A stretch of 64,000 nucleotides of DNA, taken from the NCBI GenBank assembly GCA_963675785.1, contig OY776562.1:74516-138515 (forward strand), written 5' to 3'. Of the stretch, positions 9,901 through 24,509 are shown piece by piece; the first letter of the stretch is position 1; the number at the start of each line of letters is the position of its first letter. The position numbers and the translations under genes are program-made. The stretch is from Anaerolineae bacterium (GTDB lineage Bacteria; Chloroflexota; Anaerolineae; UBA1429). The notes under the pieces were generated by a model that did no database searches, had not been told where the DNA came from, and worked only from the letters and a program-made list of their open reading frames with translations.

Positions 9901-10788
9901 ATGACGCCAAGACTACAGCAGTGTGCCCAGCGCTTGTTCGACCTCTATTTACGAGACGCGCCCCGAGCGGCAGTGATTCATGATGCGGCCTTTGGCGAGT
10001 TAGCTCAGGCGATAGGACTTTTGGGACCGTTTGAATCGTTCCTGATTAACGATAGTGCTCAGACCGAAACAGCCGTCCAGTATAGTTTGGATGAAGCTTT
10101 TCCCACGCTCGTGTTGGTCGAGCCGAACAGCTATGTGAAGATGACCCTTTACAAGTGGTTGGATTTCAGCTTGGGCGCCCCACATATCGCCAACCTGAAT
10201 GCGCCTTCCGCCATTTGTGTCTTTCCTCTTGAGAGCACCTATCGCATTTTCTCCTCGGATGCCGAGGCCGATGCTCGTGCCAAAGGGCAACTCTTGAGCG
10301 ACCTTGAGGCAAACAGCGCTTATTCGGTGACCACCGAGAATGGCACATCTTTGCGTTTTATCTCGCGCCATTGGATCGACGATGGCTATGAGGTACTCAC
10401 TGCACCCATCGAAAGCTCGGTCGAGGGCGTAATTGCGGTAGATGGTGCTCTCTTTTTCCAAAGGATCGATAGCACTCTTGAGTTCATCATTGAGGCAGGT
10501 AAAATCGTCGACATCAAGCCGCGTGATGGGCGGGGGCATGAACTGGTAGAGCAGTACAAGCGGATGACAGCTTCTGATTTTCGAGACCCCGTGAACATAC
10601 AGTTAGCTGAGGTGGGCATTGGTTGCAACACTGGGGCCATCATCAGCGATTGTTTTATGGAAGCCGAGATGGTCTATGGCACCTGTCATTTCTGCTTTGG
10701 TAATAACGCTTGTTATGGGGGTGATAATCCCAGTGATTTTCATGGCGCTTCTGTGCTGATCAAATCTCCCGTTTTTACGCGCCTCTAA
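9901..10788 (+). CDS. Hypothetical protein (possibly M29/aminopeptidase-T-like fold)
   Basis: 295-aa ORF with a GGAGG RBS; only weak family resemblance (C-terminal EVGIGCNTG...CHFCFGNN). Confidence 0.4.
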   Translation: MTPRLQQCAQRLFDLYLRDAPRAAVIHDAAFGELAQAIGLLGPFESFLINDSAQTETAVQYSLDEAFPTLVLVEPNSYVKMTLYKWLDFSLGAPHIANLNAPSAICVFPLESTYRIFSSDAEADARAKGQLLSDLEANSAYSVTTENGTSLRFISRHWIDDGYEVLTAPIESSVEGVIAVDGALFFQRIDSTLEFIIEAGKIVDIKPRDGRGHELVEQYKRMTASDFRDPVNIQLAEVGIGCNTGAIISDCFMEAEMVYGTCHFCFGNNACYGGDNPSDFHGASVLIKSPVFTRL

Positions 10789-10804
10789 AAAGGAGTCTAT
10801 TTCC

Positions 10805-11440
10805 GTGTTGAATGAACAGGGCTTTGATTTGTGGGCCGATGGTTTTGATGTGAGCGTTCAGTCAAGTGAAGAAGCCAATGCCTATCCCTTTGCTGGTTAT
10901 AAGGATGTGTTGAACGCCGTCTATCGGACTGTGCATACCAAAGGGGTGGCTCGCGTCTTGGATATTGGCTTTGGCACGGGTGTCTTGACCCAAAGGCTGT
11001 ATGATGAGAGCTATGAGATCTATGGCGTCGATTTCTCTAGTCGCATGATTGAAATTGCCCAGGCCAAGATGCCTTGTGCCCATTTGTATCAGTATGATTT
11101 TTCTGAAGGGCTGCCGCCAGCACTGGATGGTTTGCAGTTTGATTTCATTATCAGCACCTATGCGTTGCACCATCTGAGTGATCCTCAAAAGGTTACTTTT
11201 CTAGAGTTATTGCGAGATCATTTAGCGAAGGATGGCCGCATTCTCATTGGCGATGTGGCCTTTGAAAGCCGGAACCTTTTGGAAGCCTGTCAGCGTCAAG
11301 CAGGGGAAGGCTGGGACTCGGACGAGATATATATCGTCCATGATGAACTAGCGAGCTACTATCCGGATGGAGACCTGTGTTTTCAGGCCTTTTCCCACTG
11401 TGCAGGCGTTATCGAATTGGGTCCCCGTGTAACGAGATGA
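10805..11440 (+). CDS. Class I SAM-dependent methyltransferase
   Basis: Motif I VLDIGFGTGVLT and the downstream acidic motif YGVDFS. GTG start with an AAGGAG RBS. Confidence 0.7.
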   Translation: MLNEQGFDLWADGFDVSVQSSEEANAYPFAGYKDVLNAVYRTVHTKGVARVLDIGFGTGVLTQRLYDESYEIYGVDFSSRMIEIAQAKMPCAHLYQYDFSEGLPPALDGLQFDFIISTYALHHLSDPQKVTFLELLRDHLAKDGRILIGDVAFESRNLLEACQRQAGEGWDSDEIYIVHDELASYYPDGDLCFQAFSHCAGVIELGPRVTR

Positions 11441-11441
11441 G

Positions 11442-12032
11442 GTGATGATGCGAGTCCCTACGATTGAACAAGCCGAGGCTCTGCTTGTCAAAGCACAAGA
11501 GCTGAACCTGGGCGTTTGGGTTGACCATAGCAGAGTAGCAGGAAATTGCGCACGCGCTATAGCGAATGCTTGTCCGGATCTCGATCCAGATTCATCTTAT
11601 GTGATGGCTCTCTTGCATGATATCGGCCGTCGCTTTGGCGTAACCGATATGCGCCACATTATCGATGGTTATCAATTTTTGCAGGAACTTGGTTTTACGG
11701 ATGCTGCTCGCATTTGCTTAACCCACTCTTTTTCTTATCAGGACATTGCAGCATACAGTGGTAAGAACGATTGTACACCTGAAGAAACGGCTTTCATTAT
11801 CGATTATCTGGCAACCTGCCAGTACGATGACTATGACCGACTCGTACAGCTCTGTGATGTGCTGGCTTATCCTACGGGGTCGGTGTACATCGAAAAGCGC
11901 CTGGTGGATGTTGTCCTACGCCACGGTTTCAACGATCTTACTCTCGAAAAGTGGAAGGCGTTCCTTGCCCTAAAAGGCTATTTTGATGAGATGGCAGACA
12001 CAGATATTTATCGCCTTGTGGGGGTGTGCTGA
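11442..12032 (+). CDS. HD-domain phosphohydrolase
   Basis: H...HD signature (ALLHDIGRRFG); 196 aa. Confidence 0.6.
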   Translation: MMMRVPTIEQAEALLVKAQELNLGVWVDHSRVAGNCARAIANACPDLDPDSSYVMALLHDIGRRFGVTDMRHIIDGYQFLQELGFTDAARICLTHSFSYQDIAAYSGKNDCTPEETAFIIDYLATCQYDDYDRLVQLCDVLAYPTGSVYIEKRLVDVVLRHGFNDLTLEKWKAFLALKGYFDEMADTDIYRLVGVC

Positions 12033-12186
12033 TACTTGAGCGGTCTCTCATAGACGCGATGCCAGATCGACCTCGGAATACCATATGTAGATCTCGCAGC
12101 AATCTTGCCCTTCCGCTTAAAGATTCGGCTTTTTGCCTACTTGACAGGGTATTCGTTTTCTGACAAAATATGAACGAACGTTCATT

Positions 12187-12206
12187 AACTAACTAACTAA
12201 CTAACT
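12187..12206. repeat. (AACT)5 tetranucleotide microsatellite
   Basis: aactaactaactaactaact, read directly from the sequence, about 20 bp upstream of the RBS of the TetR gene at 12226. Confidence 0.9.
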
Positions 12207-12225
12207 ATCTTGGTGAGGAGAATGA

Positions 12226-12867
12226 ATGGATAAAAAAGCTGTTTTCGAAACGCTGATCGAAGAGGCGACATCAACTAAAGAGCGACTTTTCTACAGCGCA
12301 GTGTATCTCTTTTCTATCAAGGGCTATGCCAATGTGGGGATTCGAGCGCTGTGCAGTTCGCTGAATATGCAGCAAAGCGCTTTTTACAATCATTACAGCA
12401 GCAAGGAGGAACTCTTTGAGGCGATTCTTGCTCGCTTTGCAGAATTGAGCAGCCAAGTCGTTTTTACAGAGCAAGAAATCGATGATGTGGTGTGTTCGGG
12501 AGATGTAGCCTTGTTTTTCATCGAAAACATGAAAAAGTTCAGCGCCAGTACCGGCAGTCCACTTTATCACACACTGCTTCAAATCGTGCTGATGGAGAGT
12601 TACACCAATCCCATCGCCCACGAGATTGCCCGGCACAATCTCTACTACCTTCGCAAGGGTTATACCGAACAGGTTCTGTCCAGAATGATGGAGGCCGGGG
12701 ATATCAAGCCCTGCAATGTCGAGGTGGTTGCTGCCGAGTATTACTATGCGCTCATTGGGTTTTTCGATGAATATCTCTTGAATGAGGTTTGGGGCGAGAG
12801 CACCGATGTCATCGACAAGCGAATTGAGGAGCACATTCGTTTCTTTGTAGAGCTTTTGAAAAAGTAG
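12226..12867 (+). CDS. TetR/AcrR family transcriptional regulator
   Basis: N-terminal HTH-like region (TKERLFYSAVYLFSIKGYANVGIRALCSSLNMQQSAFYNHYSSKEELF); 213 aa. Confidence 0.7.
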   Translation: MDKKAVFETLIEEATSTKERLFYSAVYLFSIKGYANVGIRALCSSLNMQQSAFYNHYSSKEELFEAILARFAELSSQVVFTEQEIDDVVCSGDVALFFIENMKKFSASTGSPLYHTLLQIVLMESYTNPIAHEIARHNLYYLRKGYTEQVLSRMMEAGDIKPCNVEVVAAEYYYALIGFFDEYLLNEVWGESTDVIDKRIEEHIRFFVELLKK

Positions 12868-12902
12868 TGGCAGCAGGAGTTTCAGAATGAGCACAGTGAT
12901 TT

Positions 12903-13531
12903 ATGGAAAAGCTTGATCTGGACGAAAAGTATGTCTTTGCCGTTTGCACCTATGGTGATAGCCCTTGTATCGCGCTAGAAGAGCTAGAGCAGCTTGTCGA
13001 ATCTTGCGAGAGCAAGCTTTCGGCAGGTTTTGCCGTCAGAATGCCCTACAATTAGGTTAATCCTTCCAGAATACACCGCTTTTTAGTTCGTTCGCATTGC
13101 GCAATGTGCCCGAGGTCTCTTGTCAGGAGATGTTTGTGGCTTGGCACGAAACATTGCCGACTATTGCCAAGCTGGTTCAGGCTCGTGGACTCGGCGAGGT
13201 AATCATTGAGCATTGAGGGACCGAGCTCTCTTACGTGGAGAGCATCCAATTGATGGATCATGGCTTTAGCAGCAATAGTACTTGTATCGGCTGTGGCACT
13301 TGTCAAAGGGTGTGCCCGGTGGGGAATATCGAGATAGTGGGTAGTCAGCCTGTATGGCAGCATCGTTGCGAGAAATGCTTTGCCTGCTTGCAGTGGTGTC
13401 CCCAAGAGGCCGTTCAGTTTGGCACGGCTACGGTGGGCCAAAAGCGTTATCATCACCCAAAGGTTCGTTTATCCGAGACGATGAGCGACCATGGGGAGGG
13501 TAGGAAATTAACCAAGGAGAATTTTGAATGA
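12903..13531 (+). pseudogene. Degraded EFR1-type (flavodoxin-like plus 2x[4Fe-4S]) ferredoxin gene, split across frames
   Basis: A short ORF MEKLDLDEKYVFAVCTYGDSPC...AVRMPYN (flavodoxin-like fragment) is followed, after stops and a frame change, by a 98-aa ORF with two ferredoxin-type Cys clusters (CIGCGTCQRVCP and CEKCFACLQWCP). Confidence 0.4.
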
Positions 13532-13893
13532 GCAAGGTAATTGGGGCAGGCGTGTTATTTCTGTTGACGGGAGGGCTGGGCATTTGCTTGAGTAGTTCGG
13601 GCAAGCCTTACGGCACATTGATTTTCACAATCCACAAGCTCGTGGGGCTGGCGGCTGTGATATTCGCTGTCATCGTGGTTCGCAATTTACTGCAGGGAGC
13701 TGGTATCGAAGGAACGGCCATGACGCTGATCATTGTCACGGGCGCTTCCATCCTGGCTCTGTTTGTGACCGGCGGTTTATTGGGGGCCGAGAAGGAGCCT
13801 TACATGTTGCTAAGGGTGGTGCACATTGTGGCAACGTGTCTGGCACTCCCTTCTGTGGGGGCGCTTTTCTATCTGCTGGGATTCAAGAAATAG
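13528..13893 (+). CDS. Small integral membrane protein (three or four predicted TM helices)
   Basis: 121 aa, hydrophobic throughout. The start overlaps the upstream stop. Confidence 0.5.
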   Translation: MSKVIGAGVLFLLTGGLGICLSSSGKPYGTLIFTIHKLVGLAAVIFAVIVVRNLLQGAGIEGTAMTLIIVTGASILALFVTGGLLGAEKEPYMLLRVVHIVATCLALPSVGALFYLLGFKK

Positions 13894-14052: not shown

Positions 14053-14472
14053 ATGAGCCAGGTATTTCAGCGTTGCGGCGCGAGTGTGATTGTCTACAAA
14101 GGCGACCAGGTGTTGTTGCAACAACGCAAGGATAATCGCTGCTGGGCCTACCATGGTGGATGCGTCGAGTTGGGCGAGAATGTCGAGCAAGCGGCTAGGC
14201 GAGAACTGTTTGAGGAGACTGGGCTTGTTGCTGAGGAGCTCGATTTTTTCGGTATTTATTCGGGTCCCGAACAGCATCACATCTATCCCGATGGTAACGA
14301 GGTCTATTTTATCGATATTATCTATACTTGCACAGCCTTTACGGGTGAACTTTGTGCTCAATTAGCGGAATTACTCGATCTGAGGTGGTTTGCGTACGAC
14401 GCCATTCCAAATGAGATCAGCCCGCCGATCAAAAGTGCGCTGCTGGATTTCATTCAGCAGCATTATGGCTGA
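14053..14472 (+). CDS. NUDIX hydrolase
   Basis: Nudix box GGCVELGENVEQAARRELFEETGL. Confidence 0.75.
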   Translation: MSQVFQRCGASVIVYKGDQVLLQQRKDNRCWAYHGGCVELGENVEQAARRELFEETGLVAEELDFFGIYSGPEQHHIYPDGNEVYFIDIIYTCTAFTGELCAQLAELLDLRWFAYDAIPNEISPPIKSALLDFIQQHYG

Positions 14473-14499: not shown

Positions 14500-15063
14500 G
14501 TGCATCTCGTACTCATTCGCCATGGGGAACCCGACTATAGCGAGGTCAACGAAAGGCATTATCCTGGTTTTGGCAAGGATTTAGCCAAATTAACGCCTCA
14601 AGGCCTTGAACAGGCTGAGGCTGTCTCTCACAATGCCAGATTGCAGGGAGCACAGCTTATCGTTTCTTCGCCCTATACGCGTGCTCTACAAACAGCAGCC
14701 ATCATCTCTAGAAACACCGGGTTGCCCATTCAAGTAGAGACCGATCTGCACGAGTGGATGCCAGATCTGACTTTTCAGTATGATAGCTGGGATTATGTAA
14801 TGCGAGCTGTCGAGGAGTGTACCAAGTATCGAGGGCGCCGTGATGATAGCTGTTTATACCAGTGGGAGGACCTAGCCCATGTCGCCGAACGTGCCTATCG
14901 CTGCCTGGCAAACTATGCCCATTATGAAAAGCTCGTTATAGTGGCCCATGGTATGTTGATGCGTCAGTTCAAATTCGTGCCCGAGATACCTTATTGCGGA
15001 ATTCTAGAGCTAGAGTGGACGCCCGAAATGCCCTGGCCCGGGTTCATTGAGCGGCAGGATTAG
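14500..15063 (+). CDS. Histidine phosphatase family protein (PGAM-like)
   Basis: N-terminal RHG motif (LVLIRHGEPDY); GTG start with an AGGAGG RBS. Confidence 0.7.
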   Translation: MHLVLIRHGEPDYSEVNERHYPGFGKDLAKLTPQGLEQAEAVSHNARLQGAQLIVSSPYTRALQTAAIISRNTGLPIQVETDLHEWMPDLTFQYDSWDYVMRAVEECTKYRGRRDDSCLYQWEDLAHVAERAYRCLANYAHYEKLVIVAHGMLMRQFKFVPEIPYCGILELEWTPEMPWPGFIERQD

Positions 15064-15086: not shown

Positions 15087-15554
15087 GTGAAGACGATGAT
15101 TACTTTTGGTAATACGATTACGGTTGAAGATTATTGCACGCTGCGCAAATCGGCCGGATGGCGCAAAATCGAGGATCGTCAAGCCCAAACGGGTCTGAAT
15201 AATTCAGCCTATATCACTGTGGCCAGTGATGGTATCAAGACAGTGGGAATGGCCCGTGTGGTCAGTGATGGCGGCTATATCGCCCTCATCGCTGATGTGA
15301 TTGTGTTGCCCGAATATCAAAATCGGGGCATTGGTCGGGCCCTCATGCACAATGTTGTGCGCTACATTGAGGATACGCTTTCGGAAGGACAGTGTGTTAT
15401 GGTCAACCTGATGGCGGCCAAAGGCAAAGAGGGCTTTTACGAGAAATTCGGTTTTGTAGTGCGTCCCAACGATTCGGTAGGGGCCGGTATGCACCGCTGG
15501 GTCGAGGGACACGCCAACAGCCTACTTGATCAACGACACACTGGAACTGACTAG
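15087..15554 (+). CDS. GNAT family N-acetyltransferase
   Basis: Acetyl-CoA motif QNRGIGRALM. Confidence 0.7.
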   Translation: MKTMITFGNTITVEDYCTLRKSAGWRKIEDRQAQTGLNNSAYITVASDGIKTVGMARVVSDGGYIALIADVIVLPEYQNRGIGRALMHNVVRYIEDTLSEGQCVMVNLMAAKGKEGFYEKFGFVVRPNDSVGAGMHRWVEGHANSLLDQRHTGTD

Positions 15555-15615: not shown

Positions 15616-15924
15616 ATGGACGAACTCTACCTCCTCGCACAGGGTTATAATTGCCGTTTTCCTCAAGGCGTTAATCCCTTTCAGATGGTTACGCGGTTGC
15701 TTGAAGAGTGTGGCGAAGTGGCCAGCGAGGTCAATCATTGGGAAGGTAGTGGCGTCAAGAGGCAAAAACATGGCGAACCCTCGAAAGCACAATTAGCGAA
15801 TGAGATTAGACAGGCTCTAGCTGCGCTAGCATCCATTGCTGCCTATTATTCAGTCGAAGAGGAGCTGCAAGTCTCCATTGATGATTCTCTCTCTCGTATG
15901 AGGGCCGAGGGTCTCATTGATTGA
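15616..15924 (+). CDS. MazG-like nucleotide pyrophosphohydrolase domain protein
   Basis: 102 aa from the internal ATG with an AAGGAAGG RBS; EECGEVASEV...ELADVL-type MazG pattern (weak). Confidence 0.45.
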   Translation: MDELYLLAQGYNCRFPQGVNPFQMVTRLLEECGEVASEVNHWEGSGVKRQKHGEPSKAQLANEIRQALAALASIAAYYSVEEELQVSIDDSLSRMRAEGLID

Positions 15925-15945: not shown

Positions 15946-16686
15946 ATGAATGACGACATCTTGTACATCGAGGAACGTTCCTTAAATGCCCACCCCGCTA
16001 TAGAAACGCAGTTCTACGATGGCTGGGTGCTGCGCTTTGCTGGCGGTTACACCAAGCGGGCGAATTCCGTGAATCCCTTGTATGTGGGTGCTCTCCCTCT
16101 GGACGAAAAGATTGCCTTTTGCGAGGGGGTATACACACGGCAGGGCCTGCCCACGGTGTTCAAACTGACGCCCGCTTCGTCCGAGGGGTTGGACGAACTT
16201 TTGGCACGTAACGGCTATGAGGTGGTTGCTCCTACGAACGTCATGACACGCCCTTTGGCTGAGACGGATGCGGTCGATACTTTGGTGACTGTTGAGGATG
16301 AGATCGATGCGCGCTGGCAGCGCAGTTTTTTCGCCTTGAACGGGGTTACGGATAACGTCAAAATGGCCACAGCTTCTGCTATGATGAGACATATTTTGCA
16401 GAATGTGCTCTGTGCCCGCATTGAGAAGGAGGGATGGATCGTCGCCTGTGGATTATGCGTGGTGGAACGTGGCTATGCCGGCCTCTATGATATTGTCGTA
16501 GATCCCCTCTGCCGCAAGCAGGGATATGGCTATCGGCTCTGCAGTGCTCTGTTAGGTTCGGCGTACAAACTGGGGGCACACAGCGCATATTTGCAAGTGG
16601 TTGCTGAAAACGCTCCAGCCATGGCTTTGTATGCAAAGTTGGGCTTTGTGTATCTGTATCAGTACTGGTACAGGGTCAAGAGCTGA
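15946..16686 (+). CDS. GNAT family acetyltransferase (two-lobed, about 246 aa)
   Basis: C-terminal acyl-CoA N-acyltransferase motif (VVDPLCRKQGYGYRLCSALL). Confidence 0.55.
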   Translation: MNDDILYIEERSLNAHPAIETQFYDGWVLRFAGGYTKRANSVNPLYVGALPLDEKIAFCEGVYTRQGLPTVFKLTPASSEGLDELLARNGYEVVAPTNVMTRPLAETDAVDTLVTVEDEIDARWQRSFFALNGVTDNVKMATASAMMRHILQNVLCARIEKEGWIVACGLCVVERGYAGLYDIVVDPLCRKQGYGYRLCSALLGSAYKLGAHSAYLQVVAENAPAMALYAKLGFVYLYQYWYRVKS

Positions 16687-17886: not shown

Positions 17887-18014
17887 GGCCTGCATTGACG
17901 AACTCGGATATGAGGACGTGATATCCCGTTCTAAAAGTAAGTCTTCCATCTTGGTCGTGGAGCATATTCTGATACAATATGCTCCTCTTTTTGCTCCCTT
18001 CGGAGGATACTCGG

Positions 18015-18887
18015 ATGTTCACATATGACGAGCTTTTGACGAGATTTGCCTCGTGGACCGAGAGGACTCATGACGTGATAGCTGTTTTTATCATAGGCTC
18101 TCGTGCCAGAGATAAATCCCCGGCCGATGCCTTTTCAGATCTCGATCTCGTGTTAGTGGTCACGGATCCAGAACATTTCTTGTCGTCGGACGAGTGGATC
18201 GAAAATCTAAGCCCCTATTGGATGCAGTTCACTGAACGTACCTTTGGTGGTGGTCAAGAGCGCCGAGTGCTGTTTGAGGGGGCTCTTGACGTTGACTTTT
18301 GCCTATTTTCAGAGGCTCAATTTCGGCGTCTTGCAACTGAAAGAGAGGCGCACAAGATATTCTCCAGAGGATATCGGGTCATGCTCGATCAGGCTGGATT
18401 AGCTGGTCTGCTTCCCAATTGTAGTTTTGAGCATTCACAATCTCTTCCTCCACTAGAGGGCGAATTCTTGAACCGCGTTAATGATTTTTGGTTCCATACT
18501 GTGTGGGTTGCGAAAAAGCTGCAGCGAGGCGAGTTGTGGACCGCTAAATCATGTTTGGATTGCTATATGAAGCAACATTTACTATGGATCACCGAGTGTC
18601 ACGCTCACATCATCAATGGCTGGGGTTATGACACTTGGCACGACGGCCGTTTTTTAGACGTATGGGCATTGCGAGAAGTAAAGGGGGCAATCCCCTGTAC
18701 TTTTGCACGCTATGATCTCGTTGATATGGAACGTGCTCTGCGAGCCACGATGGATTTGTTCCATTCGCTGGCTGTAAAAGTCGCTGAGGATATGCAGTTC
18801 GAATATCCAGCAGAAAAAGAACAGCAGGTTATCAAGTGGGTCGATCAAGCATTAGCGAATCTATCCCCTTCTGATGCTGCATTATGA
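18015..18887 (+). CDS. Aminoglycoside 6-adenylyltransferase-like (ANT(6)/AadK family) nucleotidyltransferase
   Basis: N-terminal pattern of the ANT(6) family (FASWTERTHDVIAVFIIGSRARDKSPADAFSDLDLVLVV). Start at the internal ATG 18015. Confidence 0.65.
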   Translation: MFTYDELLTRFASWTERTHDVIAVFIIGSRARDKSPADAFSDLDLVLVVTDPEHFLSSDEWIENLSPYWMQFTERTFGGGQERRVLFEGALDVDFCLFSEAQFRRLATEREAHKIFSRGYRVMLDQAGLAGLLPNCSFEHSQSLPPLEGEFLNRVNDFWFHTVWVAKKLQRGELWTAKSCLDCYMKQHLLWITECHAHIINGWGYDTWHDGRFLDVWALREVKGAIPCTFARYDLVDMERALRATMDLFHSLAVKVAEDMQFEYPAEKEQQVIKWVDQALANLSPSDAAL

Positions 18888-19820
18888 ATGGGAACTGCTA
18901 TGGAACTAAATGAGCTTGTTCGCACTATTCCTGGTTCGAATGGTTGGCAACTAGTGCGAGAGGTCAATAAGGGCTGGTCATCCGATCGCAAATACTATGT
19001 CGAAACAGGTGAGGGGCAGCGACTTTTGTTGCGAGTTTCGGATATCGCCCAGTACGATGAAAAGAAGCGCGAGTTCGAAGCGATGAAACAGCTCGACACT
19101 CTCGACATAAATATACCTCGCCCCATAGATTTTGGCCTTTGCGAGGGAGGCGCGGCAGTGTACCTTTTGCTTACCTGGGTCAATGGGGCAGAAGCGGAGA
19201 AGGTATTACCTACGTTGAACAGCGCTGAACAATATAGATTAGGACTGGAAGCGGGCAGGGTGCTGGCCAAGATGCATCAGGTTCCTGCTCCCGAGGGACA
19301 AACTCCTTGGTCAGAACGTTTCAACGCCAAGATCGATCGAAATATCCGTAAACATTTGGCTTGTCGGATTCAAGCAGAGGGTGCTGACCGGATCATTGCC
19401 TACATTGAGACCAGCAGGCATTTGCTGGATGATAGGCCGCAGTGTTTTCAGCATGGCGATTACCATTGCGGTAACATGCTAATCAACAATCAGCGTCACA
19501 TTGGCATTATCGATTTCAACCGACTCGATTACGGCGATCCTTGGGAAGAATTCAATCGCATTACTTGGTGTGCTGCAGTCAGTCCCTTGTTTGCTTCGGG
19601 GCGTATCAACGGCTATTTCGAGGATGCTGTGCCTGACGAGTTTTTCAGGCTTTTGGCGCTGTATATCGGCAGCAATCAGCTCGCTTCTGTACCATGGGCC
19701 ATTCCCTTTGGTCCCGCCGAGGTACAGACAATGCTTCAACAAACAAAAGCTGTGTTAGCATGGTATGATGATTTCCGTTCCTATATCCCCAGTTGGTACA
19801 TCTCTCAATTCTCGGACTGA
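18888..19820 (+). CDS. Aminoglycoside/choline-kinase-type phosphotransferase (APH family)
   Basis: Catalytic loop HGDYHCGNMLI and IIDFNRLDYGDPWEEF. The start abuts the ANT(6) stop (TGAATG). Confidence 0.75.
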   Translation: MGTAMELNELVRTIPGSNGWQLVREVNKGWSSDRKYYVETGEGQRLLLRVSDIAQYDEKKREFEAMKQLDTLDINIPRPIDFGLCEGGAAVYLLLTWVNGAEAEKVLPTLNSAEQYRLGLEAGRVLAKMHQVPAPEGQTPWSERFNAKIDRNIRKHLACRIQAEGADRIIAYIETSRHLLDDRPQCFQHGDYHCGNMLINNQRHIGIIDFNRLDYGDPWEEFNRITWCAAVSPLFASGRINGYFEDAVPDEFFRLLALYIGSNQLASVPWAIPFGPAEVQTMLQQTKAVLAWYDDFRSYIPSWYISQFSD

Positions 19821-19878: not shown

Positions 19879-20302
19879 ATGACAAGAAACTACGAGTCTC
19901 AAGATCTTGATGGCTGTGTACAGCTTTTGATTGAGGCCTACAATTGCGAGCCCTGGAATAACCACTGGACTGAAGAGACGGGTAAACGATATCTTGACGA
20001 GTTTGCACTGTCTCGGAATTTCGTCGGTTTTGTAGCAACTGAGCATGAGGAGCTCGTTGGCGCCATGTTTGCACATAGGAAGACATGGTGGACCAACGAC
20101 AAAGTGTTCGTGGACGAGTTGTTCATTAAACCTGTTTTTAAGGCAAAGGCTATGGCACGGCTTTACGCGACATGGCGAGGACTATGGCCATTCAAAGGGT
20201 TTAGCCAGACTTATATTGTTGACGAATCCTTATATGCCCGCCAAGACCTTTTATGAGAAGAACGGCTATACGCTGGCAGAGCATGTTGTTTTTCTACTAT
20301 AA
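19879..20302 (+). pseudogene. GNAT N-acetyltransferase disrupted by two closely spaced 1-nt deletions (around 20140 and 20172)
   Basis: The N-terminal frame (19879..) runs to ...VDELFIKPVF. A third frame reads GKGYGTAL, and the track ORF 20045..20302 gives RHGEDYGHSKGLARLILLTNPYMPAKTFYEKNGY. Restoring one nucleotide at each junction yields ...FIKPVF(K)GKGYGTAL(L)RHGEDYG..., a canonical GNAT. Confidence 0.5.
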
Positions 20303-20465: not shown

Positions 20466-21326
20466 ATGATCCAAGTAGTAGAGGGAAGGCTCATGCTTTT
20501 ATCGCAGATAACAGAAACCCTTTCAGCGATTCCGGGTGTCAGAGCTATAGCATTGGGAGGTTCCCAAAGCCGCGGAGAAGCTGACGAAAGCTCAGACTTT
20601 GATATTGGTTTGTATTATGACGCAGACACGCTGGATGTCATTGCGTTAAGCCAATGCCTAAAGGAAATCGATGACAGGCATGAGGACGGTCTTTTGAATC
20701 CTCCTGGGCAGTGGGGCTCTTGGATCAATGGCGGAGCGTGGTTGAGTGTCGAGGGTGTGTCTATCGATATCCTTCTTCGAGATATTTCAAGGGTCAAAGC
20801 GGTCGTTGGGGATTGCGTCGCGGGCAGAATCACAATTGATTACCAAAATGGGCACCCTTTTGGTTTTGTCAACACGATCTATGCTGCTGAGACACACTAT
20901 TGTCAGCCTTTGTGGCAAGATCGCTCTGCACTTCTCTCGATGCTAAAAACCTTGCTGTATTCAAAAGGTGAGTATCCCCCCTTGATGCGAGAAGCTACGA
21001 TCAAGAAATTTCTGTGGGGTGCCGAGTTTTCATTGCAGTGTGGGCGTAAGGCAACGTTTCGGGGTGACCTCAATTACTCGGCTGGTTCCGTTTTTAGGGC
21101 TGTTTGTTGTTGGGTTCAAGTACTATATGCCCTGAATAATTGTTATTTGATGAACGAAAAGGGGGCTTTGAGGCAGGTTCATCTCCTTGAGCAAAGCCCG
21201 GCTGATATGGAACCCAAAGTGAAGGAGATATATTCTCTGCTGGCGAATGGGAACGCCCAAGGTGCTTACCAAATTCTAGAGTGTTTACATAGTAAAGTCG
21301 AGGAGCTTGTCGCTGGATTTTTTTGA
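20466..21326 (+). CDS. Nucleotidyltransferase-domain protein (Pol-beta superfamily, about 280 aa, DUF4037-like C-terminus)
   Basis: GS...(D/E).D motif: ALGGSQSRGEADESSDFDIGLYY. The start could be ATG 20466 or 20493. Confidence 0.55.
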   Translation: MIQVVEGRLMLLSQITETLSAIPGVRAIALGGSQSRGEADESSDFDIGLYYDADTLDVIALSQCLKEIDDRHEDGLLNPPGQWGSWINGGAWLSVEGVSIDILLRDISRVKAVVGDCVAGRITIDYQNGHPFGFVNTIYAAETHYCQPLWQDRSALLSMLKTLLYSKGEYPPLMREATIKKFLWGAEFSLQCGRKATFRGDLNYSAGSVFRAVCCWVQVLYALNNCYLMNEKGALRQVHLLEQSPADMEPKVKEIYSLLANGNAQGAYQILECLHSKVEELVAGFF

Positions 21327-21385: not shown

Positions 21386-21736
21386 ATGACCTTTGATGAC
21401 GCCTTTTGGCACGCTTTGGACGAATTGGTAGTCACCTCAGAAATAATCATTGATCGTCCCAAAGGGGCGCGGCATCCCCGATATCCCGATATGGTTTACC
21501 CAGTGGATTACGGCTACCTGCAGGGTACTACCTCTATGGATGGTGGTGGCATTGATATCTGGAGGGGTTCGGATACTCGAGGGCAAATTGATGCCATCAT
21601 CTGCATTATAGATCTGCTCAAACGAGATTCAGAGATCAAAATATTGATGGGTTGTACGGACGATGAAAAGCGCGTGATTTATCGTTTTCACAACGAGTCC
21701 GAGCATATGAAGGGCATTTTGATCAATAGACATTAG
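21386..21736 (+). CDS. Hypothetical protein
   Basis: 116-aa ORF with no family recognised. Confidence 0.35.
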   Translation: MTFDDAFWHALDELVVTSEIIIDRPKGARHPRYPDMVYPVDYGYLQGTTSMDGGGIDIWRGSDTRGQIDAIICIIDLLKRDSEIKILMGCTDDEKRVIYRFHNESEHMKGILINRH

Positions 21737-21764
21737 CTCTCAAGCATGAGAGGGGCTATCTTTT

Positions 21765-22247
21765 ATGGAGATCGAGCTGATCAAGGCAAGCTTGGAAGAT
21801 GCGCCGCAGCTGCATGCTATGCAGGTGCAGGCCTTTATGCCGCTCTTGGAGCGTTACCAGGATTTCGACACCAGCCCGGCCAACGAGTCCCTCGAAAAAG
21901 TGGTGGCGCGTATTGCTCAGCCCACTACAGACTATTACCTCATTCATACCGATGGGCAACCTGTGGGGGGTATCCGCGTCGTGAGGCGAGGAGAGGGGCA
22001 TTATCGCGTCAGCCCGGTCTTTGTTCTGCCAGCCTACCAGGGCCAGGGCATTGCCCAAAGGGTGTTCGGCATGGTTGAGGCCATGTACGCTGATGCTGTG
22101 TTATGGGAGCTAGATACTATTCTGCAAGAAGCAGGCAACTGCTATCTGTACGAAAAGCTGGGCTATCGCCAGATGGGCGAGACGCATATAGTCAATCCTC
22201 AAATGACCATCGTCTTTTACGAAAAGCCAGTTACGGCGGCAGAGTGA
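21765..22247 (+). CDS. GNAT family N-acetyltransferase
   Basis: QGQGIAQRVF motif; 160 aa. Confidence 0.7.
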   Translation: MEIELIKASLEDAPQLHAMQVQAFMPLLERYQDFDTSPANESLEKVVARIAQPTTDYYLIHTDGQPVGGIRVVRRGEGHYRVSPVFVLPAYQGQGIAQRVFGMVEAMYADAVLWELDTILQEAGNCYLYEKLGYRQMGETHIVNPQMTIVFYEKPVTAAE

Positions 22248-22260
22248 AGGAGATACTGAG

Positions 22261-22944
22261 ATGGGTTACTCGCTGAGCTTGGAGAATATATCTCTTGCCA
22301 ACTACAAAGAGCTACTCAGGGCTAAATATCTGACGCCGGGGCGGCAGATTCTGCACGAGGACATGGACGTTCACTTTGAGGCCTTGACTAACGCCGGCAT
22401 GGATAATCTGGCAGAGCTCGAGCGAGCAATCTTGACGAGCAAAAAGCTCAAAGCGTTTGCGATCGAGTGTGGCTTGTCCGTTGAATATCTGACGATCCTA
22501 CGGCGCGAGATTGGCAGTCTGGTGCCCAAGGCGGTTGCGCTCGAAGCGCTGTTGCCTGATGATTTGGAAGAACGAACCAAACTGGCCGAGGCGGGGATCA
22601 AAACCTCCGAGGACTATTACACGTTTTACTGCTCCGCAGGCAACGCCAGCCAAGTTGCGCAGAGGCTCGGCATTGGTGAGATGCGTGTTGATTACCTGTT
22701 CAGTCTCTGTGATTTAGTACGTATCAACGGCGTTGGGCCTCAGGCAGCCAGAGCCCTTTACGAGGCGGATTATCATTTGGCGGCGGATGTGGCGCAGGCT
22801 TCCGCCGAAGAAATGTTAGCGCGCGTATCCACCGCCAATGATGCTGGGCAGTATTACAAAGCCAAGCTAGGCCTGAAGGATATGCAGTTCTGCATCGACC
22901 ATGCCCGATTGCTGCATTCACAGGACGACGAGCTCTGTGATTAA
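22261..22944 (+). CDS. Hypothetical protein with HhH-like (DUF4332-like) repeats
   Basis: 227 aa; repeated L..(I/L)(N/P)G(V/I)G.. segments resembling helix-hairpin-helix. Weak call. Confidence 0.35.
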   Translation: MGYSLSLENISLANYKELLRAKYLTPGRQILHEDMDVHFEALTNAGMDNLAELERAILTSKKLKAFAIECGLSVEYLTILRREIGSLVPKAVALEALLPDDLEERTKLAEAGIKTSEDYYTFYCSAGNASQVAQRLGIGEMRVDYLFSLCDLVRINGVGPQAARALYEADYHLAADVAQASAEEMLARVSTANDAGQYYKAKLGLKDMQFCIDHARLLHSQDDELCD

Positions 22945-23092
22945 TGCTTTGTATGTGCCCCTTTGGCGAGTCGTAAGAATCACCCACTTGAAGCTGTCTG
23001 ATACTCTGTAACCAAGACATAAAAGGAATAGAAATCGAGGGTTTTGGCATTGCGTCACTACAGCAAAAGCCCTCAATTGGAGCAGAGTTATC

Positions 23093-23794
23093 ATGAAACT
23101 GGTAGATTTCAAGGGACTGTTCAAAAAATCAACGGCGACCGTGTTATCAGTCGAGAACCCTTTTGGCGATTATTACACAGTAAAGCTAAAGGCAGAATCT
23201 GGTATGACCTGGCGACCCGGAGAGCACGGCATTTTTACTTTGCCTGATAGTGAAGTGAAGGGCAAAAAGTGGCGAGTCTTCAGTGTGGCTTCTATTCCCC
23301 AAGAGGGCCATCTTTTGATTGGCACACGCACCGGGGCCCAGGTCAGTAGTTTCAAAGAGCATTTGCTTCACATGGAAGCGGGCGGTCGAGTCAATCTGGT
23401 AGGGCCTTTTGGCTGGTTTACCTTGCAGGACGATACTTCTCCGTTGGTGATGATAGCTACTGGCGTGGGCATCACGCCCGCACGCGCCCTGCTCAAAGCC
23501 CTGGAGAAGGTGGAAACGCGTCCTGTCGAGCTAATTTATGCTTCTAATGATTACCATCTATTTGGACCAGAGTTGGTTGAGATGGCTGATGTCAATTCCC
23601 TGATGACCTTGCATCTGTGCGAGCATCGGGAAGATGCGATTCATTTGGTTGAGGCAGCCGCAGCGCGCTATGGAAATCAGGCTTATTACTATGTTTCTGG
23701 CAAGCCTGATGTGGTGAGCTCTTTCAGAAAGGTGCTTCAAGCCAAATCCATCAAGGGCCGCCGGATTATTCGAGATTGGTTTTTGGGATACTAG
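23093..23794 (+). CDS. FNR-like oxidoreductase FAD/NAD(P)-binding domain protein
   Basis: R.(F/Y)S..S motif WRVFSVAS in a beta-barrel FAD domain, followed by the Rossmann-type MIATGVGITP. Confidence 0.5.
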   Translation: MKLVDFKGLFKKSTATVLSVENPFGDYYTVKLKAESGMTWRPGEHGIFTLPDSEVKGKKWRVFSVASIPQEGHLLIGTRTGAQVSSFKEHLLHMEAGGRVNLVGPFGWFTLQDDTSPLVMIATGVGITPARALLKALEKVETRPVELIYASNDYHLFGPELVEMADVNSLMTLHLCEHREDAIHLVEAAAARYGNQAYYYVSGKPDVVSSFRKVLQAKSIKGRRIIRDWFLGY

Positions 23795-23819
23795 ATACCC
23801 CCCAAGTAGGTGAGAGCTA

Positions 23820-24359
23820 GTGGATTCTGTCATTTTGTATCGTCAGCTAATTGATCCTCAGGAATGCAAGGGACTTTTGGCAACATTTGAGCGCTATCAG
23901 GAGACGAACAAAGTTCTCCGCCGCCAGGGAGAACAGTACATTTATCAAGAGGATCATTTCATCGATGATTGGGACGCAGACAAAAAGGCTGACGTAGAGA
24001 GAAAACTGACTGCCTTTATGGGTAAGGGTGGTGCGGTTGCGGCTGCTTTTGATGGCAAAAGGCTGGCGGGCTTTGCCAATATCGATGGCAACCTGTTCGG
24101 CTCTGGGAATCAGTACTTGGAGCTGATCTATATGCACGTCTCCCGGTTGTATCGCCATGGCGGCATTGGCCGCAGGCTCTTTGAAATGTGCTGTGATTGT
24201 GCAAGGCAGCGAGGAGCGCAAAAGCTTTATATCTCGTCGCACCCTGCTATCGAGACACAGCAGTTTTATCAGGCAGTGGGCTGTGTTCTGGCAATCGAAG
24301 TGGATGAATCGATCTATGAACAAGAGCCTCTAGATATCCAGCTTGAATATGTTCTATAA
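23820..24359 (+). CDS. GNAT family N-acetyltransferase
   Basis: RHGGIGRRLFEMCCDCARQRG motif; GTG start. Confidence 0.65.
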   Translation: MDSVILYRQLIDPQECKGLLATFERYQETNKVLRRQGEQYIYQEDHFIDDWDADKKADVERKLTAFMGKGGAVAAAFDGKRLAGFANIDGNLFGSGNQYLELIYMHVSRLYRHGGIGRRLFEMCCDCARQRGAQKLYISSHPAIETQQFYQAVGCVLAIEVDESIYEQEPLDIQLEYVL

Positions 24360-24509
24360 GGGGATATGCCAGATTATACGATATCCATGATGCCTCTATG
24401 TATGCTAGAGAGCGCGCGTGCGATTATAGGCCAGATTTGGCATTAGACGAGTGCGCGAGTATACTAGTTCTTGGAGTTGATACGGCATCAGGAAGGACAA
24501 ATAGGAAAC

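What the first reader, a model, noticed from the sequence alone, without database searches (positions are those of the whole stretch)
9901..24360. Roughly 14.5 kb island of small-molecule-modifying and nucleotide-housekeeping enzymes, including a tandem ANT(6)-like / APH pair
About 22 consecutive same-strand genes, almost all under 300 aa. They include six GNAT acetyltransferases (two frameshifted), an ANT(6)/AadK-like nucleotidyltransferase whose stop abuts an APH-family phosphotransferase (TGAATG), and a second Pol-beta-type nucleotidyltransferase. There are also NUDIX, MazG-like, histidine phosphatase, two HAD and HD hydrolases, a SAM methyltransferase, a TetR regulator and an FNR-like reductase. 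The classes (acetylation, adenylylation, phosphorylation) are the three chemistries of aminoglycoside and other antibiotic inactivation. Gene decay within the island suggests accessory status. It ends at the conserved rpsO-pnp block.
Basis: partly seen in the sequence, partly recalled or inferred. Interest (0 to 1): 0.5.

Follow-up and report, generated by a model that had tools for sequence, protein, structure and literature searches.

The report
Accessory enzyme array with swapped ANT allele
A run of about 22 small enzyme genes beside rpsO-pnp in an uncultured Chloroflexota genome is real but is not a recognisable antibiotic-resistance island. Its one unusual feature is that the streptomycin-adenylyltransferase-like gene is a deeply divergent allele in an otherwise about 99% identical sister strain.

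Summary
Window 9901-24360 carries about 22 tightly packed + strand genes. These include six GNATs (two decayed), a PF04439 ANT(6)-like gene next to an APH-family kinase, and a second Pol-beta nucleotidyltransferase. NUDIX, MazG-like, HD, His-phosphatase, MTase, TetR and FNR-like genes are also present, but only one HAD.

The resistance reading is not supported. Every protein scores far below NCBIfam/AMRFinder cut-offs (ANT 136 bits against 450, APH 52 against 205). Composition matches the flanks. There is no integrase, tRNA, flanking repeat or attC site. The ANT-APH adjacency is missing from 79 of 80 loci with APH orthologues.

A conspecific strain (L081/L166) has the whole block gene for gene. 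The nearest other genomes found (pnp 64-67%) share only one island gene upstream of rpsO, though they carry other small enzymes of a similar kind there. So this is a native, lineage-specific accessory array.

The new result is a 1.15 kb tract at 17808-18961. It covers the HAD 3' end, the spacer, all of ANT and the APH 5' end. It is 46-69% identical between strains that are otherwise about 99% identical (about 99.7% between short divergent patches). Synonymous sites are saturated and both alleles look functional. This points to allelic replacement by homologous recombination, or to an old polymorphism.

The parts
9901..10788 (+). First gene of the run. 295 aa with no Pfam family; NicX / M29-aminopeptidase-like fold.
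   Evidence: Pfam found nothing. The AF2 model has pLDDT 96. The best Foldseek PDB match is 2,5-dihydroxypyridine dioxygenase 7cn3 (E 1e-13, TM 0.66).
10805..11440 (+). SAM-dependent methyltransferase.
   Evidence: Methyltransf_25 at E 1.5e-17. It is below every NCBIfam cut-off.
11442..12032 (+). HD-domain hydrolase.
   Evidence: PF01966 at E 2.5e-8.
12226..12867 (+). TetR-family regulator, preceded by a 193-nt spacer with a promoter-like site.
   Evidence: TetR_N at E 1.5e-10. A TTGACA-17-CAAAAT site with TG lies at 12141-12169.
12903..13531 (+). Decayed gene, probably a flavodoxin-like N-terminal fragment plus a 2x[4Fe-4S] C-terminal fragment in different frames.
   Evidence: ORF fragments are listed. 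Fer4 families match 13235-13531. The flavodoxin-like reading of 12903-13055 is my reading of the sequence; Pfam found nothing there.
13528..13893 (+). Small hydrophobic protein of 121 aa, probably membrane-spanning.
   Evidence: Translation; the hydrophobic segments are read by eye, with no topology prediction run. No Pfam family.
14053..14472 (+). NUDIX hydrolase.
   Evidence: PF00293 at E 1.7e-20. The sister strain has an 18-nt insertion at position 14318.
14500..15063 (+). Histidine phosphatase (branch 1).
   Evidence: PF00300 at E 1e-22.
15087..15554 (+). GNAT acetyltransferase 1.
   Evidence: Acetyltransf_7 at E 4.7e-15. The best AMR profile, AAC(3)-XI, scores 25.6 bits against a cut-off of 300.
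15616..15924 (+). MazG-like nucleotide pyrophosphohydrolase (102 aa by the L081 gene call).
   Evidence: PDB 5ie9 at E 5e-5 and YpjD 2gta at 8e-5. The Pfam MazG match is weak.
15946..16686 (+). GNAT acetyltransferase 2 (Rv0428c_C-type, 246 aa).
   Evidence: PF24553 at E 2e-21 and Acetyltransf_1 at 9e-14.
16718..17177 (+). GNAT 3, split by a frameshift near 16890-16900.
   Evidence: The two ORFs are 16702-16977 and 16941-17177. The second matches Acetyltransf_1 at E 1e-9. Sequence read. The same split is present in L081.
17200..17886 (+). HAD-IA hydrolase. Its last 26 or so codons lie inside the divergent tract.
   Evidence: PF00702 at E 2e-20.
17808..18961 (.). Hyper-divergent recombination tract between two conspecific strains. 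The left edge is looser and mosaic, starting at 17562.
   Evidence: The tract is 46-69% nt identical in 200-nt bins, against mostly 99-100% in the flanks. These are the only bins below 90% in 36.7 kb of aligned sequence.
18015..18887 (+). ANT(6)-like nucleotidyltransferase (PF04439), 290 aa.
   Evidence: - Pfam E 5e-44.
- AadS profile 136 bits against a cut-off of 450.
- PDB AadK 2pbe and ANT(6)-Ib 8vxb at E about 4e-11.
- Identical to P0001.
- 63% identical to the L081 allele P0002.
- pS 0.76 and pN 0.22 between the two alleles.
18888..19820 (+). APH-family phosphotransferase. The alternative, database-called start is 18900. The first 25 or so codons lie inside the divergent tract.
   Evidence: - PF01636 at E 1.4e-45.
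- APH(3') profile 51.7 bits against a cut-off of 205.
- HGDYHCGN and IIDF motifs are present.
- Orthologues at 55-65% occur in Methanosarcina, Paenibacillus and Clostridia.
19879..20302 (+). GNAT 4, decayed, with at least two frameshifts.
   Evidence: Three-frame translation shows the pieces in different frames. PDB matches to GNATs are weak. Pfam did not confirm either half.
20466..21326 (+). Second Pol-beta-type nucleotidyltransferase (286 aa). It is the only island gene with an orthologue upstream of rpsO in a family-level relative.
   Evidence: NTP_transf_2 at E 4.6e-6. It is 63% identical to L002 6183-7007.
21386..21736 (+). Small protein (116 aa) with a weak pyrophosphatase-like match.
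   Evidence: InPase and Pyrophosphatase at E about 2e-3, below the cut-offs. PDB E about 0.1.
21765..22247 (+). GNAT 5, intact.
   Evidence: Acetyltransf_7 at E 3.7e-11.
22261..22944 (+). DUF4332 / helix-hairpin-helix protein.
   Evidence: PF14229 at E 2e-10.
23093..23794 (+). FNR-like NAD-binding reductase.
   Evidence: NAD_binding_1 at E 9.5e-5. NCBIfam matches to flavohemoprotein and BenC are partial.
23820..24359 (+). GNAT 6.
   Evidence: Acetyltransf_1 at E 1.4e-9.
24510..24779 (+). rpsO (ribosomal protein S15), the conserved right-hand anchor.
   Evidence: PF00312 at E 2e-36. It is 88% identical to L002 and 79% to L001.
24932..27175 (+). pnp (polynucleotide phosphorylase), followed by a strong terminator-like hairpin at 27198-27222.
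   Evidence: Pfam domains. Terminator scan.

Best explanation
What the block is. It is a native, lineage-specific chromosomal array of independently acquired small accessory enzymes. It sits co-directionally on the + strand just upstream of rpsO-pnp in an uncultured Anaerolineae-like Chloroflexota genome. The + strand shows positive GC skew throughout, so it is probably the leading strand; that is an inference. The genes are generic members of the GNAT, nucleotidyltransferase, APH-kinase, NUDIX, MazG, HD, HAD, His-phosphatase, methyltransferase and FNR superfamilies, plus a TetR regulator. Their substrates are unknown. Most likely they act one by one on small molecules or non-canonical nucleotides. 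They are not a coordinated, mobile aminoglycoside-resistance unit, and three of them are already decaying.

The one dynamic element. The ANT(6)-like gene differs sharply between two strains that are otherwise about 99% identical (about 99.7% between short divergent patches). A 1.15 kb segment has been exchanged for an anciently diverged, still functional-looking allele. The segment runs from the last 26 or so codons of the HAD gene, through the spacer and the whole ANT gene, into the first 25 or so codons of the APH gene. The exchange happened by homologous recombination with crossovers inside the flanking genes.

Shown and inferred. Shown: gene content, collinearity, the boundaries of the tract, saturation of synonymous sites, and retention of conserved residues. 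Inferred: the direction and donor of the exchange, and that selection on the ANT substrate drove or maintained it.
For: Array identity
- No protein reaches a curated equivalog cut-off.
- GC3 and codon usage match the rest of the window.
- No tRNA, flanking repeats or attC sites were found.

Lineage
- The best pnp matches are Chloroflexota/Anaerolineae MAGs at 67% and 64%.

Conservation
- L081 and L166, both from ENA contig ctg38517l (2.59 Mb), are collinear with window 8134-44828.
- L001 and L002 share rpsO-pnp and the downstream genes, but only one island gene. Their upstream regions hold other small enzymes of a similar kind.

The divergent tract
- The six 200-nt bins at 17800-19000 are 46-69% identical. 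All other 179 bins are at least 91.7% identical.
- Both flanking ORFs stay in frame, with homologous but divergent ends.
- The left edge is mosaic and the right edge is sharp, at 18961.
- For ANT, pS is 0.76 (saturated) and pN is 0.22. For pnp, dS is 0.029.
- The allele differences are spread evenly along the protein. They fall at columns that vary across the family (entropy 2.20 against 1.28, p = 3e-12). Both alleles keep 62 of 71 family-conserved columns, including the G28-S29 and D42-x-D44 positions in P0001 numbering.
- The two alleles are each other's best hit among 5.8 billion proteins.
- Neither genome has a gene call within 90% identity of the other's allele on record; each allele is a cluster of one.
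Against: - Only two genomes of this species exist in the databases searched. Allele frequencies, the donor and the direction of exchange are therefore unknown.
- Homologous recombination between sequences 35-40% divergent is inefficient. A single import from a distant donor is thus awkward unless the donor was itself mosaic. That leans towards an old polymorphism kept within a recombining population.
- Tight packing (many spacers under 30 nt) and the recurrence of GNAT, nucleotidyltransferase, MazG-like, HAD and NUDIX genes around APH orthologues in unrelated organisms could mean the array is more functionally coherent than an 'independent genes' reading implies.
- Characterised ANT(6) enzymes span about 26% identity, for example AadS against the AadK group (PMC10343464). 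Low profile scores therefore do not exclude streptomycin adenylylation.
Confidence: 0.7

Rival explanations
1. The block is an antibiotic-inactivation island, and ANT plus APH form a working aminoglycoside (streptomycin and other) resistance pair, backed by acetyltransferases.
For: - The ANT gene gives a full-length PF04439 match.
- Its only solved relatives are AadK and ANT(6)-Ib.
- All characterised family members modify streptomycin, and they are themselves very divergent from one another (PMC10343464).
- The APH keeps its kinase catalytic motifs.
- Strong allele turnover at ANT suggests selection on that gene.
- L001 carries AadA-like, hexapeptide acetyltransferase, bleomycin-resistance-like and AlkZ-like genes at the same position.
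Against: - All AMR profiles are missed by 3- to 10-fold in bits.
- APH orthologues at 55-65% are generic 'phosphotransferase family' proteins of Methanosarcina, Clostridia and Paenibacillus.
- The ANT-APH adjacency is absent from 79 of 80 APH loci and from the four ANT-homologue contexts read.
- The closest relatives come from anaerobic-reactor MAGs, judging by record names such as AnMBR. Strict anaerobes take up aminoglycosides poorly (general knowledge), so the benefit would be small.
Confidence: 0.15
2. The two ANT alleles are an old balanced polymorphism, possibly trans-species, with different substrate ranges. Fluctuating selection maintains it, and recombination has trimmed the linked divergence down to the gene. 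This differs from a single recent import.
For: - The edges are sharp and lie inside the flanking genes, although 35-40% divergence would block a simple one-step homologous exchange.
- The left flank is mosaic.
- Synonymous sites are saturated, while both alleles are under purifying selection.
- The alleles are each other's nearest relatives.
- No donor lineage with a HAD-ANT-APH arrangement was found anywhere.
Against: - There are only two genomes, so nothing is known about allele frequencies or coexistence.
- The differences are not concentrated in any region of the protein. That gives no sign of selection on a binding pocket.
Confidence: 0.3
3. The array is a functionally coherent 'small-molecule defence' gene neighbourhood. 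This would be a recurring guild of GNAT, nucleotidyltransferase, APH, HAD, NUDIX and MazG genes, co-located and perhaps co-transcribed, analogous to phage-defence islands.
For: - Packing is tight and all genes are on one strand.
- An unrelated ENA contig, L135, has a same-strand array around a 55% APH orthologue. It holds a GNAT-nucleotidyltransferase fusion, a GNAT, a MazG-like gene (65% to 15616-15924), a HAD, the APH and another GNAT.
- A census of 81 neighbour ORFs in 10 diverse APH loci gives HAD 3 (+2 Hydrolase_3), NUDIX 3, GNAT 2 and PF04439 2 (two fragments of one split gene in L095).
- L001 and L002 have other resistance-like genes at the same position.
Against: - No genome-wide baseline was computed, so enrichment is not shown.
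- Apart from one nucleotidyltransferase, there is no orthology between the arrays of the three related lineages.
- In ten more distant loci (eight with Chloroflexota-type record titles), none of these families turned up upstream of rpsO. The only matches were three weak ORF hits elsewhere in L005, L008 and L009 (limited sensitivity).
- Three of the genes are pseudogenes.
Confidence: 0.15
4. The divergent ANT tract is an assembly or binning artefact, i.e. a chimeric contig.
For: Both genomes come from metagenome or MAG-type records.
Against: - Both contigs are multi-megabase, at 3.22 Mb and 2.59 Mb.
- The tract sits at the orthologous position, keeps all three ORFs in frame and has homologous gene ends.
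- It is flanked on both sides by mostly 99-100% identity over 36 kb.
- A foreign 1.15 kb insert would not reproduce this.
Confidence: 0.03
5. The block is a mobile genomic island or an integron-type cassette array.
For: The genes are small and same-strand, and their families (GNAT, NUDIX, nucleotidyltransferases) are typical of cassette arrays.
Against: - There were 0 attC-like core-site pairs, against 3.0 +/- 2.4 in shuffles.
- Most spacers are 13-60 nt, too short for attC sites.
- No integrase or transposase was found among the ORFs scanned.
- There is no tRNA or direct repeat at the ends.
- Composition is native.
Confidence: 0.02

Closest known systems
ANT(6) aminoglycoside 6-adenylyltransferases (AadK, ANT(6)-Ia/Ib, AadS; Pfam PF04439)
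   Same: The window protein gives a full-length match to the same Pfam family. It has an N-terminal Pol-beta nucleotidyltransferase domain with the GS...DxD motif plus a helical C-terminal domain. Like aadK and ant(6)-If, it is chromosomal and has no mobile element nearby (PMC10343464).
   Different: - It scores 136 bits on the AadS profile (cut-off 450) and 68 bits on the general ANT(6) profile (cut-off 420).
- Its phmmer match to AadK is only E about 4e-11.
- The host lineage appears to be anaerobic Chloroflexota.
- Its relatives include Bathyarchaeia and Hodarchaeota proteins.
- The substrate is untested.
APH-family 'phosphotransferase family protein' clade of Methanosarcina, Paenibacillus, Clostridia and Sporomusa
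   Same: It is 55-65% identical over the full length to these proteins and has the same kinase motifs.
   Different: This clade has no characterised member that I know of, so its substrate is unknown. It is not any named APH(3'), APH(2''), APH(6) or APH(7'') type; the best profile score is 51.7 bits against a cut-off of 205.
aadE-sat4-aphA-3 resistance cluster of Gram-positive cocci and Campylobacter (recalled from memory)
   Same: It juxtaposes an ANT(6)-type gene, GNAT acetyltransferases and an APH-type gene on one strand.
   Different: None of the three window proteins reaches the corresponding equivalog profiles. The block has no transposon context, and the adjacency is not conserved outside this species.
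Mosaic genes made by homologous import of divergent alleles, such as mosaic pbp/penA genes in Streptococcus and Neisseria (general knowledge)
   Same: A sharply bounded block of high divergence lies inside near-identical flanks. Reading frames are kept and the edges are patchy.
   Different: The divergence here is far larger, at 35-50% nt with saturated synonymous sites. It covers a whole gene plus the ends of both neighbours. The gene is a putative modifying enzyme, not a drug target. No donor is known.
NicX 2,5-dihydroxypyridine dioxygenase / M29 aminopeptidase fold (for gene 9901-10788)
   Same: The predicted fold matches 7cn3 at E 1e-13 and TM 0.66.
   Different: Sequence identity is only 16% and no Pfam model in the copy searched matches it. 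Its function is unknown.

Membership tests
ANT(6) aminoglycoside 6-adenylyltransferase | Full-length match to Pfam PF04439 (Adenyl_transf). | tested here: met
   E 5.3e-44, 150.9 bits, profile positions 3-278 of 279.
ANT(6) aminoglycoside 6-adenylyltransferase | Score at or above the curated NCBIfam/AMRFinder equivalog cut-offs (ANT_6, AadS, AadK, Str). | tested here: not met
   136 against 450, 68.2 against 420, 45.2 against 600, and 29.5 against 500.
ANT(6) aminoglycoside 6-adenylyltransferase | Pol-beta nucleotidyltransferase catalytic motif (G-S ... D-x-D) intact. | tested here: met
   IGSRARDKSPADAFSDLDLV in the window allele and IGSRTREHSSADAFSDLDLV in the L081 allele. G28, S29, D42 and D44 are family-conserved.
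ANT(6) aminoglycoside 6-adenylyltransferase | Adenylylates streptomycin at 6-OH and raises the streptomycin MIC. | not testable with these tools
   This needs expression and MIC or enzyme assays.
APH aminoglycoside O-phosphotransferases (APH(3'), APH(2''), APH(6), APH(7'')) | PF01636 kinase domain with the HxDxxxxN catalytic loop and a DFG-like metal-binding motif. | tested here: met
   PF01636 at E 1.4e-45. HGDYHCGN and IIDF are present.
APH aminoglycoside O-phosphotransferases (APH(3'), APH(2''), APH(6), APH(7'')) | Score at or above a curated APH equivalog cut-off. | tested here: not met
   The best is APH(3') at 51.7 against 205. All others are at most 30 bits against cut-offs of 325-640.
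AAC / streptothricin-type resistance GNATs | Score at or above a curated AAC, SAT or STAT profile cut-off. | tested here: not met
   AAC(3)-XI 25.6 against 300, AAC(3)-I 28.3 against 200, and STAT 24.5 against 420.
Horizontally acquired or mobile genomic island | Base composition or codon usage that differs from the host genome. | tested here: not met
   GC3 0.545 against 0.540 (MWU p = 0.87) and RSCU r = 0.88. Overall GC is slightly lower, 0.500 against 0.518.
Horizontally acquired or mobile genomic island | Integrase or transposase, tRNA insertion site, flanking direct repeats. | tested here: not met
   None among the ORFs scanned. The only tRNA is at 49001-49084. No flanking repeats were found.
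Horizontally acquired or mobile genomic island | Presence/absence polymorphism among relatives. | tested here: inconclusive
   The block is present in full in the one conspecific genome. It is absent from the next-nearest genomes found, with pnp at 64-67%. No intermediate relatives are available.
Integron cassette array | attC recombination sites between cassettes, and an intI integrase. | tested here: not met
   0 core-site pairs against 3.0 expected. Most spacers are 13-60 nt. No integrase was seen among the ORFs scanned.

The most novel reading that the evidence does not exclude
The ANT(6)-like gene may be kept as two, or more, ancient allele classes that are swapped as a unit between strains through the conserved HAD and APH flanks. 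That would be a balanced polymorphism driven by an unknown natural product in anaerobic communities. In the same reading, arrays of GNAT, nucleotidyltransferase, APH, HAD, NUDIX and MazG genes like this one recur across phyla as 'small-molecule defence neighbourhoods'.
Probability: 0.15. Interest if true: 0.6.

Novelty: new member of a known kind. Interest (0 to 1): 0.33.

Why it matters
As an antibiotic-resistance lead, the block is weak. Automated 'aminoglycoside' labels on these genes rest on superfamily membership only, and this is a useful caution for resistome surveys of environmental MAGs.

The point worth following up is population-genetic. A putative small-molecule-modifying enzyme is the single most divergent locus in 36.7 kb compared between two conspecific strains of an uncultured Chloroflexota. 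It is bounded by recombination breakpoints. If more strains show discrete allele classes, the locus would mark an active selective pressure in these communities, such as a toxin or antibiotic, and would offer a tractable pair of natural enzyme variants to compare.

Tried and rejected
- Integron or CALIN idea. A regex test for attC core-site pairs gave 0 against 3.0 +/- 2.4 in shuffles, and the spacers are too short. Rejected.
- Mobile island. No tRNA, repeats or mobility genes were found, and composition is native. Rejected.
- Defence-system membership. PADLOC gave only marginal or generic hits: weak PDC-S09 nucleotidyltransferase matches, PDC-S07 for the NUDIX, and mad2 for the methyltransferase. 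Nothing usable.
- Rfam scan of the whole window found only the tRNA. There is no riboswitch or leader upstream of ANT.
- Folding the ANT 5' spacer gave z = -0.35. The hairpin at 17959-17985 is noted but not significant.
- Intragenomic gene conversion from a second ANT copy. The window has no second copy, and neither genome has a gene call for the other's allele on record. Not supported.
- Rapid in-situ diversifying selection. Rejected because synonymous sites are saturated, the intergenic spacer is unalignable, and differences are evenly spread.
- The ANT-APH pair as a conserved module. Not supported. The one exception is L095, where a split AadK-type PF04439 gene lies 1.3 kb upstream of an APH orthologue.
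- A second case of ANT hyper-divergence in L162 against L163. Not seen: ANT is 91% identical and the flanks 87-92%.
- rpsO-upstream as a general Chloroflexota hotspot. Not supported beyond the three closest lineages (limited sensitivity).
- Exact look-ups of the window's ANT ORF, of P0001 and of the 52934-54121 protein found nothing on record. The organism's name is therefore unknown.
- The literature search found no open-access structure paper for ANT(6)-Ib. Substrate-binding residues could not be checked.

Full report
1. What is in the sequence

Window 9901-24359 is an uninterrupted run of + strand genes. Spacers are mostly between -29 and 60 nt, with six of 128-193 nt.

Pfam, NCBIfam and PDB searches assign the genes as follows:
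- 9901-10788: a 295-aa protein with no Pfam family.
- 10805-11440: SAM methyltransferase.
- 11442-12032: HD hydrolase.
- 12226-12867: TetR regulator.
- 13528-13893: a small hydrophobic protein, probably membrane-spanning.
- 14053-14472: NUDIX.
- 14500-15063: histidine phosphatase.
- 15087, 15946, 21765 and 23820: four intact GNATs.
- 15616-15924: MazG-like pyrophosphohydrolase (PDB 5ie9/2gta, E about 5e-5).
- 17200-17886: HAD-IA hydrolase.
- 18015-18887: PF04439 ANT(6)-like gene, E 5e-44.
- 18888-19820: APH-family kinase, E 1e-45.
- 20466-21326: a second Pol-beta nucleotidyltransferase.
- 21386-21736: a small pyrophosphatase-like protein.
- 22261-22944: DUF4332/HhH protein.
- 23093-23794: FNR-like reductase.

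Three genes are decayed:
- A GNAT split by one frameshift at 16718-17177.
- A GNAT with at least two frameshifts at 19879-20302. Its motif A (GKGYGTAL) and its C-terminus lie in the other two frames. Pfam did not confirm either half.
- A remnant at 12903-13531 whose C-terminal part carries 2x[4Fe-4S] motifs. I read its N-terminal fragment as flavodoxin-like.

The 295-aa first gene has a confident NicX/M29-like fold (pLDDT 96; 7cn3 at E 1e-13). The six GNATs are at most 28% identical to each other. The block ends at rpsO and pnp, followed by a strong terminator-like hairpin.

2. Whose genome

The pnp protein best matches Chloroflexota/Anaerolineae MAGs at 67% (L001) and 64% (L002), and rpsO matches at 79-88%. 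The ANT protein is identical to a database protein on a 3.22 Mb NCBI/ENA contig that carries no name.

3. Is it a resistance island?

No protein reaches a curated profile:
- ANT scores 136 bits against the AadS cut-off of 450, and 68 against the ANT(6) cut-off of 420.
- APH scores 51.7 bits against the APH(3') cut-off of 205.
- The GNATs score at most 28 bits on AAC and STAT models with cut-offs of 200-420.
- The remaining genes reach no equivalog cut-off either.

PDB relatives are remote. AadK and ANT(6)-Ib match at E about 4e-11, and APH(2'') matches at E 2e-5.

Other island signatures are absent:
- GC3 is 0.545 in the block and 0.540 elsewhere (p = 0.87), and RSCU correlates at r = 0.88.
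- There is no tRNA.
- There are no flanking repeats.
- There are no attC-like sites, 0 against 3 expected.
- There are no mobility genes among the ORFs scanned.
- There is no meaningful defence-system hit.

One caveat applies. Characterised ANT(6) enzymes are all streptomycin-specific and are very divergent from one another; AadS is about 26% identical to the AadK group (PMC10343464). Activity on streptomycin therefore cannot be excluded from sequence alone.

4. Synteny

A homologue search with ANT found a 63% identical protein (P0002) on a 2.59 Mb ENA contig. Its context (L081, extended by L166) is collinear with window 8134-44828, gene for gene. It includes the same split GNAT. Most proteins are 98-100% identical, so this is a conspecific strain and the block is not strain-variable.

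L001 and L002 keep rpsO, pnp, the signal peptidase gene and the SBP gene. In the 10 kb upstream they share only the 20466 nucleotidyltransferase, at 63% in L002. Instead they carry other small enzymes of a similar kind:
- L001: an AlkZ-like glycosylase, an FMN reductase, an AadA-like nucleotidyltransferase, a hexapeptide acetyltransferase, a glyoxalase/bleomycin-resistance-like protein and YdeI.
- L002: EamA, a CAAX protease, an AraC/GyrI-like regulator, a nucleotidyltransferase, HD and NUDIX.

In ten more distant loci (eight with Chloroflexota-type record titles), none of these families turned up upstream of rpsO with a limited phmmer screen. The only matches were three weak ORF hits elsewhere in L005, L008 and L009. 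The block is therefore a lineage-specific accessory array that has been stable within the species.

5. The ANT/APH pair

APH orthologues at 50-63% were retrieved in 80 metagenome loci. Named relatives at 55-65% occur in Methanosarcina, Paenibacillus, Clostridia and Sporomusa. Only one of the 80 loci (L095) has a PF04439 gene nearby. That gene is of a different subtype and is itself split.

ANT homologues at 50-54% lie next to an MFS transporter (downstream) and an ApbA or His_Phos gene (upstream), never next to an APH or HAD gene. The adjacency is therefore specific to this species. The TGAATG junction is also not conserved: L081 has a 25-nt gap, and the database call starts the window APH at 18900.

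One unrelated contig, L135, does carry a similar same-strand array around its APH orthologue. It holds a GNAT-nucleotidyltransferase fusion, a GNAT, a MazG-like gene 65% identical to 15616-15924, a HAD, the APH and another GNAT. A census of 81 neighbour ORFs in 10 diverse APH loci found HAD, NUDIX and GNAT repeatedly. No genome-wide baseline was available, so this remains a hint.

6. The unexpected result

In 200-nt bins, window and L081/L166 are mostly 99-100% identical over 36.7 kb. Short patches show 3-12% divergence. Excluding those patches, identity is about 99.7%, and outside the tract overall it is 98.95%.

The six bins covering 17800-19000 are the exception, at 46-69% identity. No other bin falls below 91.7%. 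The divergent core runs from 17808 to 18961. It covers the last 26 or so codons of the HAD gene, the spacer, the whole ANT gene and the first 25 or so codons of the APH gene. The spacer is 128 nt in the window and 226 nt in L081, and the two are unalignable. All three ORFs stay intact, and the exchanged gene ends are homologous but divergent.

The left flank is mosaic. A 30-nt patch at 17562-17592 is about 35% divergent, followed by identity, then sparse changes. The right edge is sharp.

Between the ANT alleles, pS is 0.76 (saturated) and pN is 0.22. For pnp, dS is 0.029. Differences are spread evenly along the protein and fall at family-variable columns (p = 3e-12). Both alleles retain 62 of 71 family-conserved columns, including the catalytic motif. 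The two alleles are each other's closest relatives in the database. Neither genome has a gene call for the other's allele on record, and the window has no second copy.

This is the signature of allelic replacement by homologous recombination, or of an old polymorphism whose linked divergence has been trimmed by recombination. It is not rapid in-situ change, and it is not an assembly artefact.

7. Verdict

The finding is a correct description of an ordinary kind of thing. It is a native array of generic accessory enzymes whose 'aminoglycoside' labels rest on superfamily membership. The resistance-island interpretation is only partly supported.

The added value is the hyper-divergent, recombination-bounded ANT allele, which suggests that this one gene is under unusual selection. 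With only two genomes available, that remains a lead.

Noticed in passing
window 14318 (NUDIX gene 14053-14472): The sister strain L081 has an in-frame 18-nt (6-aa) insertion in the NUDIX gene. This is the only sizeable indel in a coding region outside the ANT tract.
   Followed up: partly
window 14904-15652, 21887-22045, 23179-23401, 23874-24224, 26854-26893, 27281-28284: Short patches of clustered substitutions (3-12% divergence) sit in an otherwise about 99.7% identical background between the two strains. They look like many small recombination imports. Whether the block is richer in them than the rest of the genome could not be tested.
   Followed up: partly
window 17959-17985: A 10-bp-stem hairpin followed by a T-rich run lies in the divergent spacer 30 nt upstream of the ANT start codon. 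It could terminate the upstream HAD transcript. It is absent from the L081 spacer, and the fold z-score of the whole spacer is not significant.
   Followed up: partly
window 9901-10788: This 295-aa protein has no family in the Pfam copy searched, although some homologues carry a precomputed PF26233. It has a confident NicX/M29-like predicted fold and many invariant His, Cys and Glu residues (for example H263, H281, C265, C271, E254, E256). Homologues at about 50% occur in Firmicutes/Clostridia MAGs.
   Followed up: partly
L135 6399-7670 and 9977-11659: An unrelated ENA metagenome contig encodes a GNAT-nucleotidyltransferase (AadA_C) fusion of 423 aa. It also encodes an APH orthologue fused to a protein-kinase-like C-terminal domain, 560 aa in total. 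Both sit in a same-strand array of small enzymes.
   Followed up: no
L162 7008-7958 against L163 7388-8011: In two related JGI contigs (87-92% nt identity), the gene immediately upstream of the ANT homologue differs: ApbA-like in one and His_Phos_1 in the other. L163 also has an extra gene downstream. This is another variable spot next to an ANT-like gene.
   Followed up: partly
L095 7826-8687: A Tissierellales-type contig has a split PF04439 gene about 1.3 kb upstream of an APH orthologue (56%). Its Pfam E-value of 1e-87 suggests an AadK-like type. It is the only other ANT/APH neighbourhood seen among the 80 loci.
   Followed up: partly
window 579-950: This ORF matches only the C-terminal part (profile positions 124-212 of 233) of the PNP_UDP_1 phosphorylase family. 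It is probably another truncated gene upstream of the block.
   Followed up: no
window 1657-6337: A divergently oriented TetR gene (minus strand) sits next to an ABC ATPase gene and a 1084-aa FtsX-type permease gene. The weak coiled-coil-type Pfam hits in the middle of the permease suggest a long insert (a MacB-like exporter).
   Followed up: no
window 37633-42307: An NAD-dependent DNA ligase gene is followed directly by an 881-aa gene encoding DEAD/Helicase_C, HNH and MZB domains. The Pfam families are taken from the L166 gene table.
   Followed up: no
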